From IMG/VR virus record IMGVR_UViG_3300012663_000526, positions 32,001 to 96,000 of that record: a stretch of DNA of 64,000 nucleotides. The stretch is one strand, 5' to 3'. Positions within the stretch are counted from its first letter, which is position 1, and every line of letters starts with the position of its first letter. Under the pieces are notes generated by a model. The model was not told the origin of the DNA and searched no databases. It saw only the letters and a list, made by a program, of their open reading frames with translations. A program made the position numbers and the translations under genes. Positions 3 through 5,421 of the stretch are shown piece by piece. The stretch is from a virus.

Positions 3-1058
3 TTTATAAATGTACTTCCCTCAGAGCTTGCGGAGTTGTCACAAGACGCTATAAATAGTGCTTTAGTTATGGGTCTACATATGACAAAAACATATGATGA
101 CACTTTAAATACAATAACAGTTTCTTCTACTCTTACAAACGTAGACAATACATCGGATGCAGATAAGCCAATATCAACTGCTACATCAACAGCATTAGCA
201 CTAAAAGCTCCTTTAGCCAATCCCGCTTTAACTGGAATTCCAACAGCACCAACTGCTGTGTCTACAACCAATACAACTCAAATTGCAACAACAGAATTCG
301 TAAAGACTGCAATAGCAAATGTTATTGATTTAGCTCCAGGTGCCTTAGACACGTTAAATGAACTCGCCGCCGCAATCAATGATGACGCTTCATACGCATC
401 TACAGTTACTACTGCATTAGGACTAAAAGCTCCTTTAGCCTCACCAACATTTAGCGGAAACGTATCTCTCCCAGCAACTACATCTATTGGAGATGTGTCT
501 AGTACAGAAATATCTTATTTAAATAATGCAACCAGCGAAATACAGGCACAAATAGATCTCAAAGCCCCATTGCTAAATCCAACTTTTACTGGAACGGTAA
601 GCGGAATTACAAAAACAATGGTTGGACTTGGAAATGTTGATAACACTTCAGATTTAGAGAAGCCAATATCTTCTTTAACAGCAACACGTATTGGCTTGTT
701 AGAAACTCAAGTTGTAGACGGATTAGCTGCAAAGGTTGATAAGGCAACTATACCAACATTAAAGTCAGACACTGCTTACACAATTAGCAATCAAACAGAT
801 AGATATAATAGAATTGAATTTGACGCTTCAACAGCAATTACAGTAACTATTCCAACAAATATAAATGATCCGTGGCCAATAGGCTCAAGCTGTGAAATTA
901 TGCAGGCTGGAACTGGAAAAATAACTGTAGTTGGTCAATCTGGAGTAACACTAAGAGCCCCAGACAATCAATTTAAAACTAGAGTTCAATGGAGCACACT
1001 AATTCTTGAAAAAAGAGGCACAAACGATTGGCTAGTATCTGGAGATTCTGATCTATAA
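3..1058 (+). CDS. Virion fibre/tail-fibre-like protein, 5'-truncated by the window edge
   Basis: Frame is open from nt 3 (FINVLPSELAEL...) upstream of the TTG at 36. Fibre repeats KAPLASPTF(T/S)G, NVDNTSD.DKP(I/V)S and LDTLNELAAAINDD. C-terminal Q.G.G...W...GD cap typical of phage fibres. Confidence 0.75.
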   Translation, partial: FINVLPSELAELSQDAINSALVMGLHMTKTYDDTLNTITVSSTLTNVDNTSDADKPISTATSTALALKAPLANPALTGIPTAPTAVSTTNTTQIATTEFVKTAIANVIDLAPGALDTLNELAAAINDDASYASTVTTALGLKAPLASPTFSGNVSLPATTSIGDVSSTEISYLNNATSEIQAQIDLKAPLLNPTFTGTVSGITKTMVGLGNVDNTSDLEKPISSLTATRIGLLETQVVDGLAAKVDKATIPTLKSDTAYTISNQTDRYNRIEFDASTAITVTIPTNINDPWPIGSSCEIMQAGTGKITVVGQSGVTLRAPDNQFKTRVQWSTLILEKRGTNDWLVSGDSDL

Positions 1059-2458
1059 TGGGACTATCAAGAAAAAAAAGAAATATTGTATCCTCAAGAC
1101 TAAAGGCATTTGTATTTTTCCAAGATAGTTTTAATAATTATTTTAAGGGCGGATGGAAATTTAGAAGAGGTCAATGGACAGCTGGTTCTTCTACTGCATC
1201 AACAGCATATAGCTCATCTCTTTATCCAATGGCTTCAGTTCCAATGAAAGATCCAAATGTAACTATTTCTATTAAAAATCCAGGCATTGGATCAGGTGCC
1301 GCTCTTTGGGTAACAGATGAAGGTAACTGGTACGGATTAGTTTCTTCACAAGTAGCAAGTCCTGGAACAGGAGCATGTCTTTCTGTAAATCCTTATAATC
1401 CTTGTGGAGCAACAAATGGTTGCGAAGGCACTGGAGGAAATTGTTACGGAAGCGGCGGATGCTCAGGCACTGGAGGAAATTGTGTTGCAACTGGCGGAAA
1501 CTATGCTGGCACAAACTATGAGTGCCAAGCTTCAAACCCAAGCTGTAATGTTGAGTATGCAAATTGTGTTGCAACTGGTGGAAACTGTAATCAAGGTGGA
1601 TTTAACTGTAATACATTTGGCGGAAACTGCAGGGCTACAGGAGGAAACTGTAACACTGGTGGTGGAAACTGTAGAGCTGGAACTGGTGGAAACTGTTCTC
1701 AATATGGTTGGTGCGGAATCCCATTTGCAGCAAGCTACTGGTGCTGTAATAGATATAATCCTTACAATCCATGCCCAAGCACTAACCCATACAACCCTTG
1801 TGTTAACATAAACCCATATAACCCATGTGCAAGCTTAAACCCATATAACCCATGTGTAAACATTAACCCATATAACTATTGCATAAATATAAATCCATAC
1901 AATCCATGTGCATCCACAAACCCATACAATCCTTGTGTTAACGTAAACCCTTACAACCCATGTGCATCTACTGTTCCTAGAGATCAGTATAATCCAGTAA
2001 ATCCATGTGGCTCCACAAACCCATATAATCCATGTGGCTCCGTAAACCCTTACAATCCATGTGCTGGAGTCAACCCATACAACCCTTGTGGTGCAGGAGG
2101 AAACTGTGCTGGAACTGGTGGAACATGTAGCTCTTATGCAACTACCTATCCAAGATACTTACAGCTTATTAGGTTTACATCAAATGTTGCAACAGCTATA
2201 TATACTTTCACTTTAGATGCAGTAACAAGCTATGTTCAGATGAAGGGTCTAAAAATTCAAATATCAAATGCCACCAAAGGTGGAACTACAGCCACAATAA
2301 CAGCCAAAGCATACTCTGACACCGCAATGGTGACCCAAATTGGAAGTGATTTGATATATAACGCAACAGGTGTTAATATTGTAGCTAACTACGGAATAGT
2401 TGTTTCTCCAAGCAGCTATAACCAAGAAAGTTCACTTGGAGAAATTACAATATCGTGA
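1058..2458 (+). CDS. Cys-rich repeat protein: probable beta-sandwich (ConA-like) domain split by a 251-aa Cys-ladder insertion
   Basis: Start overlaps the upstream stop (TAATG). All 32 Cys lie in aa 107-357. Flanks (FQDSF...W...GSGAALWVTDEGNWYG / YLQLIR...TITAKAYSD...YGIVVSPS) are beta-strand rich. Confidence 0.8.
   Translation: MGLSRKKRNIVSSRLKAFVFFQDSFNNYFKGGWKFRRGQWTAGSSTASTAYSSSLYPMASVPMKDPNVTISIKNPGIGSGAALWVTDEGNWYGLVSSQVASPGTGACLSVNPYNPCGATNGCEGTGGNCYGSGGCSGTGGNCVATGGNYAGTNYECQASNPSCNVEYANCVATGGNCNQGGFNCNTFGGNCRATGGNCNTGGGNCRAGTGGNCSQYGWCGIPFAASYWCCNRYNPYNPCPSTNPYNPCVNINPYNPCASLNPYNPCVNINPYNYCININPYNPCASTNPYNPCVNVNPYNPCASTVPRDQYNPVNPCGSTNPYNPCGSVNPYNPCAGVNPYNPCGAGGNCAGTGGTCSSYATTYPRYLQLIRFTSNVATAIYTFTLDAVTSYVQMKGLKIQISNATKGGTTATITAKAYSDTAMVTQIGSDLIYNATGVNIVANYGIVVSPSSYNQESSLGEITIS
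1376..2128 (+). repeat. Coding tandem repeats: ~21-nt (xxTGGNC) block followed by ~27-nt (xxxNPYNPC) block
   Basis: Directly visible, e.g. repeated aacccatacaacccttgt and actggtggaaactgt. Third-position divergence shows selection at protein level. Confidence 0.95.
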
Positions 2459-2703: not shown

Positions 2704-3381
2704 TTGAGAATAATAAAGTTTATTCCGTTTGGCGGAAGGAAAAACCTTATGCCTCCATCTATATCAAAAATACCACAATGGTGGAAAGATGGAGAAACAT
2801 CTACATCTGCTGGAACTCCAGGACTTAAGTCGTGTGTTCCCTTTATGGAAATAATGAAGTCTGGATATACAATAAATTTACCATTTGATATATTTGTTTC
2901 TAGGAATGAAGATGGAACTACAAATTTAAGATGGAACGCTCCAAATGAAGCTGGTTGGCCAAACTTTATTGAAGAAAGACCACCAGATCTTGGGAAAACA
3001 ATTCCAAGACCAGCAGGACATCTTCCAAATGGATTTGTATGGACATCACAATGGTCATGGAAAACTCCAAAAGGATATAGTACGATAGTAACTCATCCAT
3101 TTAATAGATTTGATCTTCCATTTACTACAGTATCTGGCATAGTAGATTCAGATAAATTTCAGGGAAATGGAAATATTCCATTTTTCTTAAAAGAAGATTT
3201 TCAAGGCGTAATTCCAGAAGGAACTCCAGTAGCCCATATATTTCCATTCAAAAGAGATAAGTGGAAGTCTTGGGTAGATGATTCTGTGGTAGAGTCTATA
3301 TATAAGAATCAAATAGCTAATTTAAGAGAGCCTGATGGTTCGTATAAAAAGGCATTCTGGGTAAAAAAGGTGTATGAATGA
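2704..3381 (+). CDS. dUTPase-fold-like hypothetical protein (DUF6065-related), copy 1
   Basis: Motifs IPQWWK, KSCVPF, WKTPKGYS, HPFNR, SGIVDSD, IPEGTPVAHIFPFKR. Resembles dUTPase motifs 3 and 4; no Gly-rich motif 5. Confidence 0.7.
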   Translation: MRIIKFIPFGGRKNLMPPSISKIPQWWKDGETSTSAGTPGLKSCVPFMEIMKSGYTINLPFDIFVSRNEDGTTNLRWNAPNEAGWPNFIEERPPDLGKTIPRPAGHLPNGFVWTSQWSWKTPKGYSTIVTHPFNRFDLPFTTVSGIVDSDKFQGNGNIPFFLKEDFQGVIPEGTPVAHIFPFKRDKWKSWVDDSVVESIYKNQIANLREPDGSYKKAFWVKKVYE

Positions 3382-3686
3382 TATTTAAAAAGAAAAACAG
3401 GATTGAAAAAATAAATCCAAAAACAGATAACTTTAAGGAACCAAAGACTTATCACGAAGAAAAAAAGATATACTCAATTGCACTAGTTCTAGATAATGAA
3501 GTTCAAGATATTCTTAGAACAGAAGAAAGACTCTGGGCAATGTTAATGAGTAATCCAGTAATAGTAGACATTACGGACAATGAGACAAGACCACAATTAA
3601 ACTGGGAATACAACGAGGAAACAGGAGAGTTCACAAATCCAAATGCAATTCAACCCAACAACGAAGAAGATCAAAGCTCTATCTGA
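3378..3686 (+). CDS. Small hypothetical protein (possible fibre chaperone), paralog of 2469-2675
   Basis: ATGA overlap with upstream gene. ALVLD.EVQ motif. C-terminal WEYNEETGEFTNP resembles the W.Y....F..P ends of fibre-associated chaperones. Confidence 0.7.
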   Translation: MIFKKKNRIEKINPKTDNFKEPKTYHEEKKIYSIALVLDNEVQDILRTEERLWAMLMSNPVIVDITDNETRPQLNWEYNEETGEFTNPNAIQPNNEEDQSSI

Positions 3687-4323
3687 AGATATTAGAATAG
3701 ACTGGGAAAAACCTTCCCCAGCTTCAAAAGAAATACCTAAATGGTTTAAAAAAATTGAAGCGGTAAATGATGAAAATCATGATATGACAATAAAGAAGTG
3801 CATCCCTTTCTTGGACACACTTACAACTGGATATATGTTTAAAACATCTGCAGATGTAATATATGACGAAGAGTATCATAGATTCTTAGACAATGGTGTA
3901 TCTGAAACCGTTACACTTCATCCTACATTTCAAATAGAAAATATGGAGATAGATAGCAATCTACACCCACTTCCGTATAAATGGATTAACAAGTTTATGT
4001 GGCAGACTCCTAAAGGATACAGCACCATGTTCTTGCACCCATTAAACAGAACAGACCTTCCATTCCAATCTATATCTGGTATCGTAGATACAGATGACTT
4101 TCCTTTGTCAGTACAGTTCCCGTTTTTTATGAAAAAGGGATTCTCTGGTTTAATACCAGCAGGAACTCCAATTATTCAAGCCATACCTTTTAAAAGAGAT
4201 GACTGGGATCTTAAGTTTCCAGATCAACAAGAATCTTACGAATACGAAGGTTTTTGGAATTGGTTCCAGCCTCCTATGGCAAAGTACAAAAGGCAATTCT
4301 GGAAGAGAAAGCGCTATCAGTGA
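3643..4323 (+). CDS. dUTPase-fold-like hypothetical protein (DUF6065-related), copy 2
   Basis: IPKWFK, KKCIPF, WQTPKGYS, HPLNR, SGIVDTD, IPAGTPIIQAIPFKR, YKRQFW. Clear paralog of 2704-3381. Confidence 0.7.
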   Translation: MQFNPTTKKIKALSEDIRIDWEKPSPASKEIPKWFKKIEAVNDENHDMTIKKCIPFLDTLTTGYMFKTSADVIYDEEYHRFLDNGVSETVTLHPTFQIENMEIDSNLHPLPYKWINKFMWQTPKGYSTMFLHPLNRTDLPFQSISGIVDTDDFPLSVQFPFFMKKGFSGLIPAGTPIIQAIPFKRDDWDLKFPDQQESYEYEGFWNWFQPPMAKYKRQFWKRKRYQ

Positions 4324-5159
4324 AAGACAAGAAAACTCCATGGGATATTTTTAAGTCTAAGGGTCAAGAAAAGGTATCCTTAGAGGATGAAGTAAAAAAA
4401 GACTACATAAATGATGACGACTTCTTGGTGCCAGAAAAAACTCTAGCATTTTACGCTACAAGAGATACTAGACATAATTTGTCAGATGTGATGGAAAGTT
4501 TAATTGGTCACCCGAATAGGGATTGGTTTGCAGTCACAGCATTTTCTTTTTGTCTTCCATTAACAATAGCAAATCAATATGGATTTGTAGTAAAGTCAAA
4601 TTGGGATATGGAAATAACTTGGGATGGTAAAGCAGAGTCTTCGCCTCAGATAAAATCAGATGGTTGGCAAAACCATGATTCAATTCAGCCTATTATAGGA
4701 GATTTTGCAAATGGAATAATTAGCCTAGAAAATGCGTTTATAGTAAGAACCCCAAGAGATACGAATCTAATGATCATGCAGCCTCCAAATTACTTTATAC
4801 CAGGACTTCACACAATGAGTGCCGTAGTTGAAGCGGATAACCTTAGAAGAAATTTTACCTTCAACATAAAGGTTACTGAGCCAAATAAGGTTATAAATAT
4901 TAAAAAGGGTGACTGGCTTGCGGCATTTATTCCAATACCAAGATTTTACGTAGATAGCTTTGAGATGAAAGACGCATTTAAGCTCTTTGGCGATGAAGTA
5001 ATAAAAAACGAGCTAGAGTCCATGCATAAGCTTGGTTGGGAAAGGAATAATCAAGACTATGATAAAATTAATGGTTCAGGAAGAAGATATTTTAAGGGCA
5101 AGCATGTAAATGATACTCCTTATAGAAATCATCAGAAAAGGGCGGGGTTAAATGGATAA
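4320..5159 (+). CDS. DUF6065-like protein (divergent third member)
   Basis: GTG 4320 overlaps the upstream TGA. RDWF...FCLPLTIANQYGF, QPPNY, AVVEAD, FTFN, IKKGD..A.FIPIPR. Confidence 0.7.
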   Translation: MKDKKTPWDIFKSKGQEKVSLEDEVKKDYINDDDFLVPEKTLAFYATRDTRHNLSDVMESLIGHPNRDWFAVTAFSFCLPLTIANQYGFVVKSNWDMEITWDGKAESSPQIKSDGWQNHDSIQPIIGDFANGIISLENAFIVRTPRDTNLMIMQPPNYFIPGLHTMSAVVEADNLRRNFTFNIKVTEPNKVINIKKGDWLAAFIPIPRFYVDSFEMKDAFKLFGDEVIKNELESMHKLGWERNNQDYDKINGSGRRYFKGKHVNDTPYRNHQKRAGLNG

Positions 5160-5421
5160 TAGCGATATTCCTAAGTGGAAGAATGTCCCAGCTAGACCAT
5201 GGGATTTGTTTAATAAAAAAATAGGAAGAGTTCCTTCTGAGGTTGCGGCTGAAAGATTTGAAATTTGCAAGGCTTGCCCTAGATATGTAAAATCTACACA
5301 TCAATGCTTAGAGTGTGGATGTATTATGAATTTAAAAGTTAAGCTGCCTAATGCCGAATGTCCTTTGGGTCATTGGGGCCAAGTAGACTTAGAAGAGAGT
5401 ACAGACTTAGATAAGGAATAA
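5152..5421 (+). CDS. Small Cys-cluster (CxxC...CxxCGC...CP) protein
   Basis: RFEICKACP...QCLECGCIM..K..L..AECPLGHW; six Cys. Confidence 0.75.
   Translation: MDNSDIPKWKNVPARPWDLFNKKIGRVPSEVAAERFEICKACPRYVKSTHQCLECGCIMNLKVKLPNAECPLGHWGQVDLEESTDLDKE

What the first reader, a model, noticed from the sequence alone, without database searches (positions are those of the whole stretch)
1376..2128. Mirror-symmetric 32-cysteine ladder: a predicted disulfide-zipped hairpin stalk with compensating irregularities
Seen: exactly 32 Cys, all in aa 107-357. C1-C16 are mostly spaced by 7 (xxTGGNC) and C18-C30 mostly by 9 (xxxNPYNPC). Pairing Ci with C(33-i) makes several irregularities match. The only double-length gap on the way out (C6-C7, 14 aa, GGNY where a Cys is expected) faces the only long gap on the way back (C26-C27, 15 aa, PRDQY). 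The single NPYNP unit on the outbound side (C1-C2) faces the GTGG 7-mer on the return side (C31-C32). The 6-aa spacers C2-C3 and C30-C31 face each other. The aromatic variants GGFNC (C10-11) and NPYNYC (C22-23) also face each other. Inference: a two-stranded antiparallel filament with 16 disulfide (or metal-thiolate) rungs, built from two different complementary repeats and inserted into a globular beta-sandwich. I do not recognise this architecture as a described phage fibre fold.
Basis: partly seen in the sequence, partly recalled or inferred. Interest (0 to 1): 0.93.

Follow-up and report, generated by a model that had tools for sequence, protein, structure and literature searches.

The report
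Cysteine-laddered two-armed stalk on phage lectin
A fibre-cluster protein of an uncultured freshwater phage is a sugar-binding-type beta-sandwich from which a 250-residue loop runs out and back as two different but complementary repeat strands, most likely pinned rung by rung by 16 matched cysteine pairs, a design that recurs in hundreds of undescribed phage proteins but has no published description that I could find.

Summary
ORF 1058-2458 (466 aa) has exactly 32 Cys, all at aa 107-357, with the stated spacings.

The mirror pairing is supported by relatives rather than by this sequence alone.
- 74 close homologs and 453 clusters at 50% identity carry mirror-symmetric Cys spacing. Cys number is even in 176 of 181 Cys-bearing homologs.
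- Repeat numbers on the two arms change together (8/8, 7/7, 4/4, 15/15 units). Bulges move in register.
- GGN-type units always face NPYNP-type units: 214 heterotypic pairs, 0 G/G.

The flanks form one ConA-like lectin/CBM sandwich, like actinophage receptor-binding heads (Z up to 15.5). AlphaFold2 did not model the stalk (pLDDT below 50), so geometry and disulfide chemistry remain inferred.

The gene overlaps the stop codon of an upstream fibre gene. It is followed, in nearly all related loci with enough downstream sequence, by two DUF6065-like genes. In all 40 Cys-bearing loci, but in none of 15 Cys-free ones, a six-Cys DUF6171-like gene lies nearby. That contrast is one evolutionary event only.

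Best reading: a disulfide-stapled stalk on a phage adhesin. The scan has met this family before on other DNA; those follow-ups agree. I found no paper describing it.

The parts
1058..2458 (+). Gene for the 466-aa lectin-fold protein with the Cys-laddered stalk (P0001). The ATG at 1058 overlaps the TAA of the upstream fibre gene (TAATG).
   Evidence: ORF list; sequence at the junction; 74 homologs plus 453 clusters at 50% identity; single copy in the complete 107,950-bp genome.
1058..1375 (+). N-terminal half (aa 1-106) of the ConA-like beta-sandwich. The first ~20 basic residues are poorly ordered and are a possible docking tail.
   Evidence: AF2 pLDDT above 90 for aa 20-110; VIA-align matches span 16-466; 99% identical in P0002 while the arms are 84-88%.
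1376..1696 (+). Outbound arm, C1-C15 (aa 107-213). One NPYNP 9-mer, a 6-residue junction, then GGN-type 6/7/8-mers interrupted by the 14-residue bulge.
1481..1525 (+). Outbound bulge C6-C7 (aa 142-156, 14-residue gap).
   Evidence: AF2 puts a strand at 149-157 with pLDDT about 67. The bulge shifts by one rung in P0005-8 together with the return bulge.
1694..1747 (+). Tip, C15-x5-C16-x9-C17-C18 (aa 213-230). A 10-residue aromatic loop (GIPFAASYW) closed by C16/C17, with vicinal C17-C18.
   Evidence: Two tip alleles (WCGIP... and NCL[IV]YGSYY[IV]SCC) are exchanged between near relatives, and the second is kept across distant subfamilies. AF2 strands at 216-218/228-230.
1745..2128 (+). Return arm, C18-C32 (aa 230-357). 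Eight NPYNP 9-mers, the 15-residue bulge, three 9-mers, a 6-residue junction, then one GTGG 7-mer.
1961..2008 (+). Return bulge C26-C27 (aa 302-317, 15-residue gap), facing the outbound bulge.
   Evidence: AF2 strand at 304-311 with pLDDT about 69; co-shifts with the outbound bulge in homologs.
2129..2455 (+). C-terminal half (aa 358-466) of the ConA-like beta-sandwich, the most conserved part of the family (YPRYL, ATITAKAYSD, TQIGSDL, TNYGI).
3..1058 (+). Upstream tail-fibre protein (open at the window's 5' end), whose stop codon overlaps the start of the ladder gene.
   Evidence: PHROG tail-fibre families at E about 1e-26; a fibre-like hit lies directly upstream in many, though not all, related loci; TAATG overlap.
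2704..4323 (+). Two DUF6065-like paralogs (2704-3381, 3643-4323; phrog_7084), each preceded by a small gene (2469-2675, 3378-3686). The DUF6065-like pair follows the ladder gene in nearly all related loci with enough downstream sequence, Cys-free ones included.
4254..5159 (+). Third paralog, a Pfam DUF6065 protein.
   Evidence: Pfam PF19541, E 8e-30; present in part of the related loci.
5152..5421 (+). 89-aa DUF6171-like protein with six invariant Cys (C-x2-C-x9-C-x2-C-x-C-x12-CP) and an RPWD motif. It lies within 0.07-3.8 kb downstream of every Cys-laddered homolog with enough flank and is absent near Cys-free homologs.

Best explanation
The gene encodes a virion appendage protein, most likely an adhesin, of a complete 108-kb freshwater phage. 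The phage has a long tape-measure protein and is related to ~130-kb Streptomyces phages.

Residues 1-106 and 358-466 fold together into one ConA-like lectin/CBM beta-sandwich. The 251 residues between them run out and back as two arms in fixed antiparallel register. The outbound arm is built mostly of 7-residue C-x-x-T-G-G-N units. The return arm is built of 9-residue C-x-x-x-N-P-Y-N-P units. A G-type unit always faces a P-type unit. Near the base the two types swap sides across a symmetric 6/6 junction. A 14-residue bulge faces a 15-residue bulge. The apex is a 10-residue aromatic loop.

Each Cys Ci sits opposite C(33-i). I infer that in the released, oxidised virion these 16 pairs are disulfides, giving a nested ladder that makes a thin Gly/Asn/Pro-rich stalk without a hydrophobic core stiff and protease-resistant.

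The conserved sandwich would dock on the fibre apparatus or bind a conserved glycan. The fast-evolving stalk and its tip would contact the host envelope.

Shown:
- The fold of the flanks.
- The mirror register.
- The co-variation of repeat number, bulge position and unit type.
- Conserved synteny in fibre modules.

Inferred:
- Disulfide chemistry.
- Stalk geometry. An extended ribbon at roughly 23 A per rung would be about 35 nm long. A compact stack of turns would be under 10 nm.
- The adhesin role.
- Help from the neighbouring six-Cys DUF6171-like protein in forming the rungs.
For: (1) 32 Cys lie only in aa 107-357, with mirror gaps.

(2) The family is large: 74 close homologs and 453 clusters at 50% identity. 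Of 206 homologs of 250 aa or more, 176 have an even Cys number, 5 odd and 25 none.

(3) Indels are compensated relative to independent landmarks. Unit counts are 3+8|8+3, 3+7|7+3, 4+7|7+4, 5+4|4+5, 4+4|4+4, 6+3+3|3+3+6 and 15|15. In other clades 10-mers face 12-mers, 9 face 11 and 6 face 8, in equal numbers. Distant members have mirror-symmetric gap strings, such as 12x6-18-12x6 or 2 3 3 8 92 16 92 8 8 2 3.

(4) Pairing is heterotypic. In mirror register there are 214 G/P pairs, 0 G/G and 7 P/P. One, two or three swapped units at the base are matched on the other arm, and in P0061 the whole stalk is swapped.

(5) Rung numbers of 13, 14, 15, 16 and 19 all occur. This does not fit sites built from four Cys (two rungs each).

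(6) Cys-free relatives keep matched arms, for example P0105 with 10 and 10 seven-residue units around a 97-aa knob. The two-armed stalk is therefore the family's basic design and the Cys are added staples.

(7) AF2 models the flanks at pLDDT above 90. Its only strands inside the stalk lie at the base, at the two facing bulges (149-157, 304-311) and at the tip.

(8) The flank fold matches CBM66 (Z 15.5), the mycobacteriophage Douge baseplate protein (14.4), the TM4 gp23 receptor-binding domain (13.2) and the phage J-1 Dit CBM2 (12.0).

(9) Context: the start overlaps the stop of a fibre gene, synteny is conserved down to about 35% identity, and flanks are 99% identical where arms are 84-88%.

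(10) The six-Cys gene is present in 40 of 40 Cys-laddered loci and 0 of 15 Cys-free loci.

(11) Virion disulfide networks have precedent (PMC10811340, PMC13576161).
Against: - There is no direct evidence for disulfides. Assembly happens in a reducing cytoplasm, and the genome shows no sulfhydryl oxidase. It holds only one thioredoxin-family gene, far away.
- AF2 gives pLDDT below 50 for the stalk here and in the short-stalk relative P0213, so no model supports SG-SG proximity.
- The constant two-residue excess of the return arm (7/9, 9/11, 10/12, 6/8) has no structural explanation yet.
- Four sequences break the balance: P0011 (6 against 2 proximal units), P0017 and P0027 (odd Cys, 6/5 and 5/6) and P0063 (truncated). 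Short-read assemblies break in these repeats, so these may be artefacts, but that is not shown.
- The association with the six-Cys gene is one evolutionary event, because the Cys-free loci form one clade.
- The adhesin role rests on fold and context only. No cultured phage in the collection has the protein.
Confidence: 0.62

Rival explanations
1. Same two-armed register, but the Cys are reduced and hold metal ions (Zn or Fe thiolate sites shared between arms) rather than disulfides.
For: The virion assembles in a reducing cytoplasm. The co-inherited neighbour has a rubredoxin/zinc-ribbon-like C-x2-C-x9-C-x2-C-G-C pattern, which could be a metal-handling protein. The mirror spacing would be the same.
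Against: Two thiolates per rung are too few for Zn or Fe. Sites using two rungs would require even rung numbers, but 13, 15 and 19 rungs occur. Cys-to-Cys spacings of 6-12 residues are not knuckle-like. The protein has no His and few Asp/Glu.
Confidence: 0.12
2. The rungs are made between chains. Arms of two or three subunits pair in an antiparallel domain-swapped dimer or a trimeric bundle, so the ladder cross-links an oligomeric fibre.
For: Most phage fibres are trimers. Mirror spacing fits an antiparallel swap equally well. A constant length difference between arms could reflect inner and outer strands of a bundle.
Against: A single-chain hairpin closed by a conserved tip loop is simpler. 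The excess is a constant two residues, not a constant ratio, which suggests a local feature at each rung rather than a longer path around a bundle. The closest structural matches listed were single carbohydrate-binding-type domains, and no fibre shaft or coiled-coil match was listed.
Confidence: 0.1
3. The Cys form only local loops (Ci-Ci+1, beads on a string), or are a compositional feature of low-complexity repeats. The mirror pattern would then be coincidental.
For: Short C-x5-8-C loops are common in Cys-rich repeats. AF2 gives no hairpin model.
Against: Local pairing predicts no link between the arms. Yet unit numbers, bulge positions and unit types co-vary across many independent architectures. 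Arms with 13 or 15 Cys cannot be fully paired within themselves.
Confidence: 0.03

Closest known systems
ConA-like lectin/CBM domains, including heads of actinophage and lactophage receptor-binding proteins (CBM66 4b1m; Douge baseplate protein 8zdo; TM4 gp23 C-terminal domain 9n6a; J-1 Dit CBM2 5ly8)
   Same: The flanking 215 residues model confidently as the same beta-jelly-roll sandwich (Z 12-15.5, 149-173 aligned residues). The gene lies in a fibre module.
   Different: Sequence identity is 7-14%, with no Pfam, PHROG or PDB sequence match. None of those matched entries is described as carrying a long two-armed Cys-rich insert. The sugar-binding residues were not examined.
Beta-hairpin antimicrobial peptides and the cyclic cystine ladder of theta-defensins (PMC13001179, PMC10096437)
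   Same: Nested, mirror-order Cys pairing across two antiparallel strands.
   Different: From my own knowledge of these peptides, they have 2-4 rungs in about 18-25 residues with identical-type strands. Here there are 16 rungs over 251 residues, with two different complementary repeat types and 6-9 residues between rungs, as an insert in a globular domain.
Stalk and knob of bovine ultralong CDR H3 (PMC5994613, PMC8602281)
   Same: A two-stranded antiparallel stalk projects a small disulfide-closed tip from a beta-sandwich. Stalk length is a functional variable.
   Different: The antibody stalk is about 10-12 residues per strand and is not cross-linked; its disulfides are in the knob. Here the stalk itself carries the rungs and is ten times longer.
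Gp38 adhesin of T-even/S16-like phages (PMC12032242; Dunne 2018 as cited there)
   Same: A monomeric tip adhesin with conserved Gly-rich motifs alternating with fast-changing segments. The repeats act as recombination sites.
   Different: Gp38 is a three-layer polyglycine-II sandwich without a Cys ladder. P0001 has only GG per 7 residues. No sequence match was found, and the fold was not testable because the stalk was not modelled.
Disulfide networks in phage virions (Milano tail PMC10811340; siphovirus tail tube PMC13576161)
   Same: Precedent that phage particles use disulfides for mechanical stabilisation.
   Different: Those are single intersubunit bonds in sheath or tube lattices, not an intrachain ladder in a fibre appendage.

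Membership tests
ConA-like lectin/glucanase (CBM-type) beta-sandwich fold | Two-sheet jelly-roll sandwich of about 200 residues | tested here: met
   AF2 pLDDT above 90 for aa 20-110 and 350-466. VIA-align gives Z 15.5 (4b1m, rmsd 2.7, 149 aligned), 14.4 (8zdo) and 13.2 (9n6a). Foldseek gave only weak lectin hits (E above 0.03).
ConA-like lectin/glucanase (CBM-type) beta-sandwich fold | Sequence membership in a curated lectin or CBM family | tested here: not met
   No Pfam family at E<=0.1, no PHROG, no PDB sequence match at E<=10.
ConA-like lectin/glucanase (CBM-type) beta-sandwich fold | Carbohydrate binding | not testable with these tools
   Conserved W84, D87, W91, S420-D421 and Q427 could form a site. 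No assay or ligand model was available.
Cystine-ladder beta-hairpin (nested Ci/C(n+1-i) disulfides) | Mirror-order Cys positions on two antiparallel arms | tested here: met
Cystine-ladder beta-hairpin (nested Ci/C(n+1-i) disulfides) | The pairs are oxidised to disulfides | not testable with these tools
   The stalk was modelled at pLDDT below 50, and the tools return no coordinates. This needs mass spectrometry.
Gp38-type polyglycine-II sandwich adhesin | Glycine-rich motifs with Gly at every third residue forming PGII helices, and an N-terminal Gp37-attachment domain | tested here: inconclusive
   The units carry only GG per 7 residues, and no sequence match was found. The stalk fold was not modelled, so a fold comparison was impossible.
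Zinc-ribbon or rubredoxin-type metal sites | Pairs of CxxC knuckles giving four ligands per metal | tested here: not met
   Cys spacings are 6-15 residues, there is one CC and no CxxC, and no His. Odd rung numbers occur in relatives.
CXXX-repeat radical-SAM-matured fibre proteins | Cys at every fourth residue with an adjacent radical-SAM maturase | tested here: not met
   The period is 7 or 9, not 4. There is no Radical_SAM match in the complete genome, while the control genomes all matched.

The most novel reading that the evidence does not exclude
This would be a new kind of protein fibre. A heterotypic two-strand ladder has a Gly-Gly-Asn strand and an Asn-Pro-Tyr-Asn-Pro strand that fit each other unit by unit. 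They are stapled by up to about 20 nested disulfides. The length is tuned by paired gain and loss of units. The ladder is built with the help of a dedicated phage-encoded six-Cys DUF6171-like factor (and perhaps the DUF6065-like proteins). That would be a virus-encoded system for oxidising or templating a virion protein made in a reducing bacterial cytoplasm.
Probability: 0.3. Interest if true: 0.9.

Novelty: new variant of a known kind. Interest (0 to 1): 0.8.

Why it matters
If the ladder is real, it would be by far the longest nested disulfide ladder I know of. It would show how to build a long, thin, core-less rod from two complementary short repeats. That is of interest for protein design and for understanding how phages of freshwater actinobacteria reach their receptors.

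The family is large: 453 clusters at 50% identity. It is entirely unannotated and absent from the cultured phages searched. It provides a ready natural experiment, because paired changes of repeat number act as compensatory mutations at the scale of whole units.

The link to a six-Cys small protein gives a testable handle on how a phage could form many disulfides in a protein made in the cytoplasm.

Tried and rejected
- AlphaFold2 of P0001 with a 75-row alignment and of the short-stalk relative P0213 with 101 rows: flanks were confident, the stalk was below pLDDT 50. There is therefore no SG-SG test and no stalk geometry.
- Foldseek against the PDB: no match at E<=0.001.
- Complex prediction with three copies of P0213: no verdict (score 0.00). 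This is not evidence either way.
Context came from the search for related loci instead.
- tblastn of the whole protein and of the C-terminal domain against 50,697 phage records: no match.
- Pfam, PHROGs and PDB sequence searches: nothing.
- A DNA palindrome as the source of the symmetry: no inverted repeats.
- Radical-SAM maturation: none in the genome.
- Erv/ALR oxidase search: no match, but the control genomes did not match either, so this is uninformative.
- Tentaclins (PMC10743442) were read as a possible described relative. They are C-type-lectin/Ig proteins with a short DGR-mutated hairpin and are unrelated.
- Sequencing runs: no RNA holder was listed. Contigs laid on the gene are fragmented in the repeats and gave no usable linked indels.
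- A strict count of Cys before and after the tip motif balanced in only 24 of 42 sequences. Nearly all the rest differ by two, because of extra local Cys pairs. I therefore used unit runs and landmarks instead.
- The phylogenetic contrast for the six-Cys gene gave only one independent pair.
Full report
**Observation**

ORF 1058-2458 (+) is the only long frame over the finding. Its 466-aa product (P0001) has 32 Cys at aa 107-357 (nt 1376-2128) and none elsewhere. The gaps between successive Cys are 9 6 7 6 7 14 7 7 7 7 7 7 7 8 6 10 1 9x8 15 9 9 9 6 7.

- The 14-residue gap faces the 15-residue gap.
- NPYNP (C1-C2) faces GTGG (C31-C32).
- The two 6-residue spacers face each other.
- NQGGFN faces VNINPYNY.

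Shuffling the return-arm gaps reaches the observed mirror correlation in about 1% of trials. That is suggestive, not decisive. There is no inverted DNA repeat. The 21- and 27-nt repeats are only 72-89% alike. The symmetry therefore lies at the protein level and is old.

**Family**

A word-indexed search gave 74 homologs, all unnamed and all from metagenomes. A profile search of 1.84 billion representatives gave 453 clusters at E<=0.001, of which 118 were at E<=1e-30. IMG/VR gave 68 loci.

Of 206 homologs of 250 aa or more, 176 have an even number of Cys, 5 an odd number and 25 none.

Gap strings are mirror-symmetric throughout the family. Examples:
- 12x6-18-12x6
- 2 3 3 5x6 ... 5x6 8 2 3
- 2 3 3 8 92 16 92 8 8 2 3

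Among 109 representatives with an even number of at least 10 Cys, 71% of mirror gap pairs agree within two residues, against 46% after shuffling. 48 are individually at p<0.05.

Two landmarks are independent of unit counts: the long gaps, and the conserved tip motif C-x5-C-x9-C-C. Relative to these, the numbers of proximal and distal units on the two arms are as follows.

| Sequence | Outbound (proximal+distal) | Return (distal+proximal) |
|---|---|---|
| This protein, P0002 | 3+8 | 8+3 |
| P0003, P0004 | 3+7 | 7+3 |
| P0005-8 | 4+7 | 7+4 |
| P0010 | 5+4 | 4+5 |
| P0012, P0013 | 4+4 | 4+4 |
| L007 (bulges 12/14 and 10/12) | 6+3+3 | 3+3+6 |
| L008 | 15 | 15 |

Other clades use other unit lengths but keep equal numbers:
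- 10-mers against 12-mers: 7/7, 4/4, 3/3, 2/2.
- 9 against 11: 5/5, 4/4, 3/3.
- 6 against 8: 5/5.
- 7 against 9: 5/5, 2/2, 1/1.

Between P0001 and P0005, a unit gained before the outbound bulge is matched by a unit gained after the return bulge. A unit lost beyond the bulge is lost on both arms.

Exceptions are P0011 (6 against 2 proximal units), P0017 and P0027 (odd Cys, 6/5 and 5/6) and the truncated P0063. Short-read contigs break inside these repeats, so assembly error is possible but not shown.

**Complementary unit types**

In mirror register, 31 proteins give 214 G/P or P/G pairs, no G/G pair and 7 P/P pairs. The P/P pairs all come from proteins whose extra basal CxxCxxC shifts the simple count.

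At the base the types swap sides. One (this protein), two (P0010-13) or three (L007) P units on the way out face the same number of G units on the way back. The swap happens across a symmetric 6/6 or 11/11 junction. In P0061 the whole stalk is swapped.

In this clade the return unit is always two residues longer than the outbound unit, whatever the unit length. A constant difference rather than a constant ratio points to a local feature at each rung. I have no structural explanation for it.

**Cys are staples on an older design**

Cys-free relatives keep matched arms. P0105 has ten and ten 7-residue GSNYG-type units around a 97-residue knob. P0075 has arms of 50 and 52 residues.

Many Cys-bearing relatives add local pairs (CxxCxxC at the base, CC in a bulge). 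As a result the count of Cys before and after the tip balances exactly in only 24 of 42 sequences and differs by two in nearly all the rest. Rung numbers of 13, 14, 15, 16 and 19 occur. This speaks against metal sites made of two rungs each.

**Structure**

AlphaFold2 with the 75-row alignment models aa 20-110 and 350-466 at pLDDT above 90 as one sandwich. The stalk is left below 50. The only strands inside the stalk are at the base (107-119 / 350-360), at the two facing bulges (149-157 and 304-311, pLDDT about 67-69) and at the tip (216-218 / 228-230).

A short-stalk relative, P0213, gave the same picture. Long base strands at 101-124 and 206-230 lead out of the sandwich, followed by low confidence.

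Foldseek found nothing at E<=0.001. VIA-align against 48,161 chains identifies the flanks as a ConA-like lectin/CBM jelly roll:
- CBM66 4b1m, Z 15.5
- Mycobacteriophage Douge baseplate protein 8zdo, Z 14.4
- TM4 gp23 receptor-binding domain 9n6a, Z 13.2
- Phage J-1 Dit CBM2 5ly8, Z 12.0

The stalk's geometry is therefore open. An extended ribbon at about 23 A per 7-residue rung would be roughly 35 nm long. A stack of turns, which the Gly/Asn/Pro-rich composition would also allow, would be under 10 nm. Both figures are my own estimates.

**Context**

The genome is a complete 107,950-bp virus record with direct terminal repeats.
- It has an 1815-aa tape-measure protein.
- Its portal is 59-62% identical to those of ~130-kb Streptomyces phages.
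- The gene recurs in freshwater metagenomes of at least seven studies.
- The gene's ATG overlaps the TAA of an upstream tail-fibre gene.

Downstream lie a small gene, two DUF6065-like paralogs each preceded by a small gene, a Pfam DUF6065 protein, an 89-aa DUF6171-like protein, and another fibre gene. The ladder gene is followed by the two DUF6065-like genes in nearly all related loci with enough downstream sequence, down to about 35% identity.

The DUF6171-like protein has six invariant Cys in the pattern C-x2-C-x9-C-x2-C-x-C-x12-CP. It lies within 0.07-3.8 kb downstream in all 40 Cys-laddered loci with enough flank and in none of 15 Cys-free loci. However, the Cys-free loci form one clade, so this is a single evolutionary contrast.

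**Rates of change**

Against P0002, the flanks are 99% identical, the arms 84-88% and the tip 78%. Against P0006, the flanks are 84-89% identical, the arms 64-66% and the tip 50%.

Two tip alleles exist. They are exchanged between otherwise close proteins (P0003 against P0004). One of them, CL[IV]YGSYY[IV]SCC, is kept across subfamilies that share only 35-50% identity overall. The tip is therefore a conserved cassette, and possibly the folding nucleus of the hairpin. The arms change fastest.

**Interpretation**

The best-supported reading is a lectin-fold virion appendage whose insert is a two-armed stalk in fixed antiparallel register, stapled by 16 Cys pairs.
- I put the register at about 0.9.
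- I put disulfide chemistry in the mature particle at about 0.65.
- I put an adhesin or host-contact role at about 0.55.

Rivals are metal-thiolate rungs, interchain rungs in an oligomer, and local loops. The local-loop reading is contradicted by the co-variation.

**Comparison with what is known**

The nearest described things are:
- ConA-like heads of actinophage receptor-binding proteins (same fold in the flanks only).
- Beta-hairpin antimicrobial peptides and the theta-defensin cystine ladder (same pairing logic, with few rungs) (PMC13001179, PMC10096437).
- The bovine ultralong CDR H3 stalk and knob (same idea of a projecting two-strand stalk, without rungs) (PMC5994613, PMC8602281).
- Gp38 adhesins (Gly-rich motifs alternating with variable segments, a different fold) (PMC12032242).
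- Virion disulfide networks (PMC10811340, PMC13576161).

Five literature searches found no description of this family.

**Earlier notes of this scan**

The same family was seen in at least six other genomes. Follow-up agents reached the same general reading. I tested the claims independently here.

- Landmark-based compensated indels.
- The heterotypic G/P pairing with its matched swap point.
- The constant +2 rule.
- The conserved tip cassette.
- The parity argument against metal sites.
- The association with the six-Cys gene, based on a single event.

Noticed in passing
window 5152-5421: An 89-aa DUF6171-like protein with six invariant Cys (C-x2-C-x9-C-x2-C-x-C-x12-CP) and an RPWD motif. It is present downstream of all 40 Cys-laddered homologs with enough flank and of none of 15 Cys-free ones, but the Cys-free loci are one clade, so this is a single contrast.
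   Followed up: partly
window 2704-3381, 3643-4323, 4254-5159: Three DUF6065-like paralogs. Two of them follow the ladder gene in nearly all related loci with enough downstream sequence, Cys-free ones included. Their only relatives among cultured viruses are hypothetical proteins of haloarchaeal tailed viruses (HF2, HRTV) and one cyanophage. Function unknown.
   Followed up: partly
window 1376-2128 and homologs P0010-P0059, L007, L008: In this clade the return-arm unit is always two residues longer than the facing outbound unit (7/9, 9/11, 10/12, 6/8; bulges 10/12, 12/14, 19/21). More distant clades use equal periods (5/5, 7/7, 8/8, 10/10, 12/12). No explanation found.
   Followed up: partly
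window 1694-1747; P0003 against P0004: Two alternative tip cassettes (WCGIPFAASYWCC type and NCLIYGSYYISCC type) are exchanged between proteins that are otherwise 80-90% identical. The second type is conserved across distant subfamilies.
   Followed up: partly
P0105, P0075, L055-L058 (relatives): A Cys-free clade of the family has the same sandwich and two matched arms of 7-residue GSNYG-type repeats (10 and 10 in P0105) around a Tyr/Ser/Thr-rich knob of about 90-100 residues.
   Followed up: partly
window 1056-1060: The stop of the upstream fibre gene and the start of the ladder gene overlap (TAATG), which suggests translational coupling.
   Followed up: yes
genome G000:C1:5283-5522 (outside the window): A thioredoxin-family gene (59 bits, above Pfam's cut-off). 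It is the only classical thiol-redox protein found among those searched for in the phage genome, and it lies about 28 kb upstream of the ladder gene.
   Followed up: no
window 1058-2458 in runs X1, X2, X4, X7: Short-read assemblies from four freshwater studies break into many small contigs inside the repeat region and show several co-existing variants. Repeat-number exceptions seen in metagenomic proteins (such as P0011) may therefore be assembly artefacts.
   Followed up: partly
window 1-21000 against 21978-48865: The fibre gene block that holds the ladder gene lies upstream of the portal and capsid genes, apart from the tape-measure and minor-tail block (32.8-48.9 kb). It is not established whether these fibres sit on the tail or elsewhere on the particle.
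   Followed up: no
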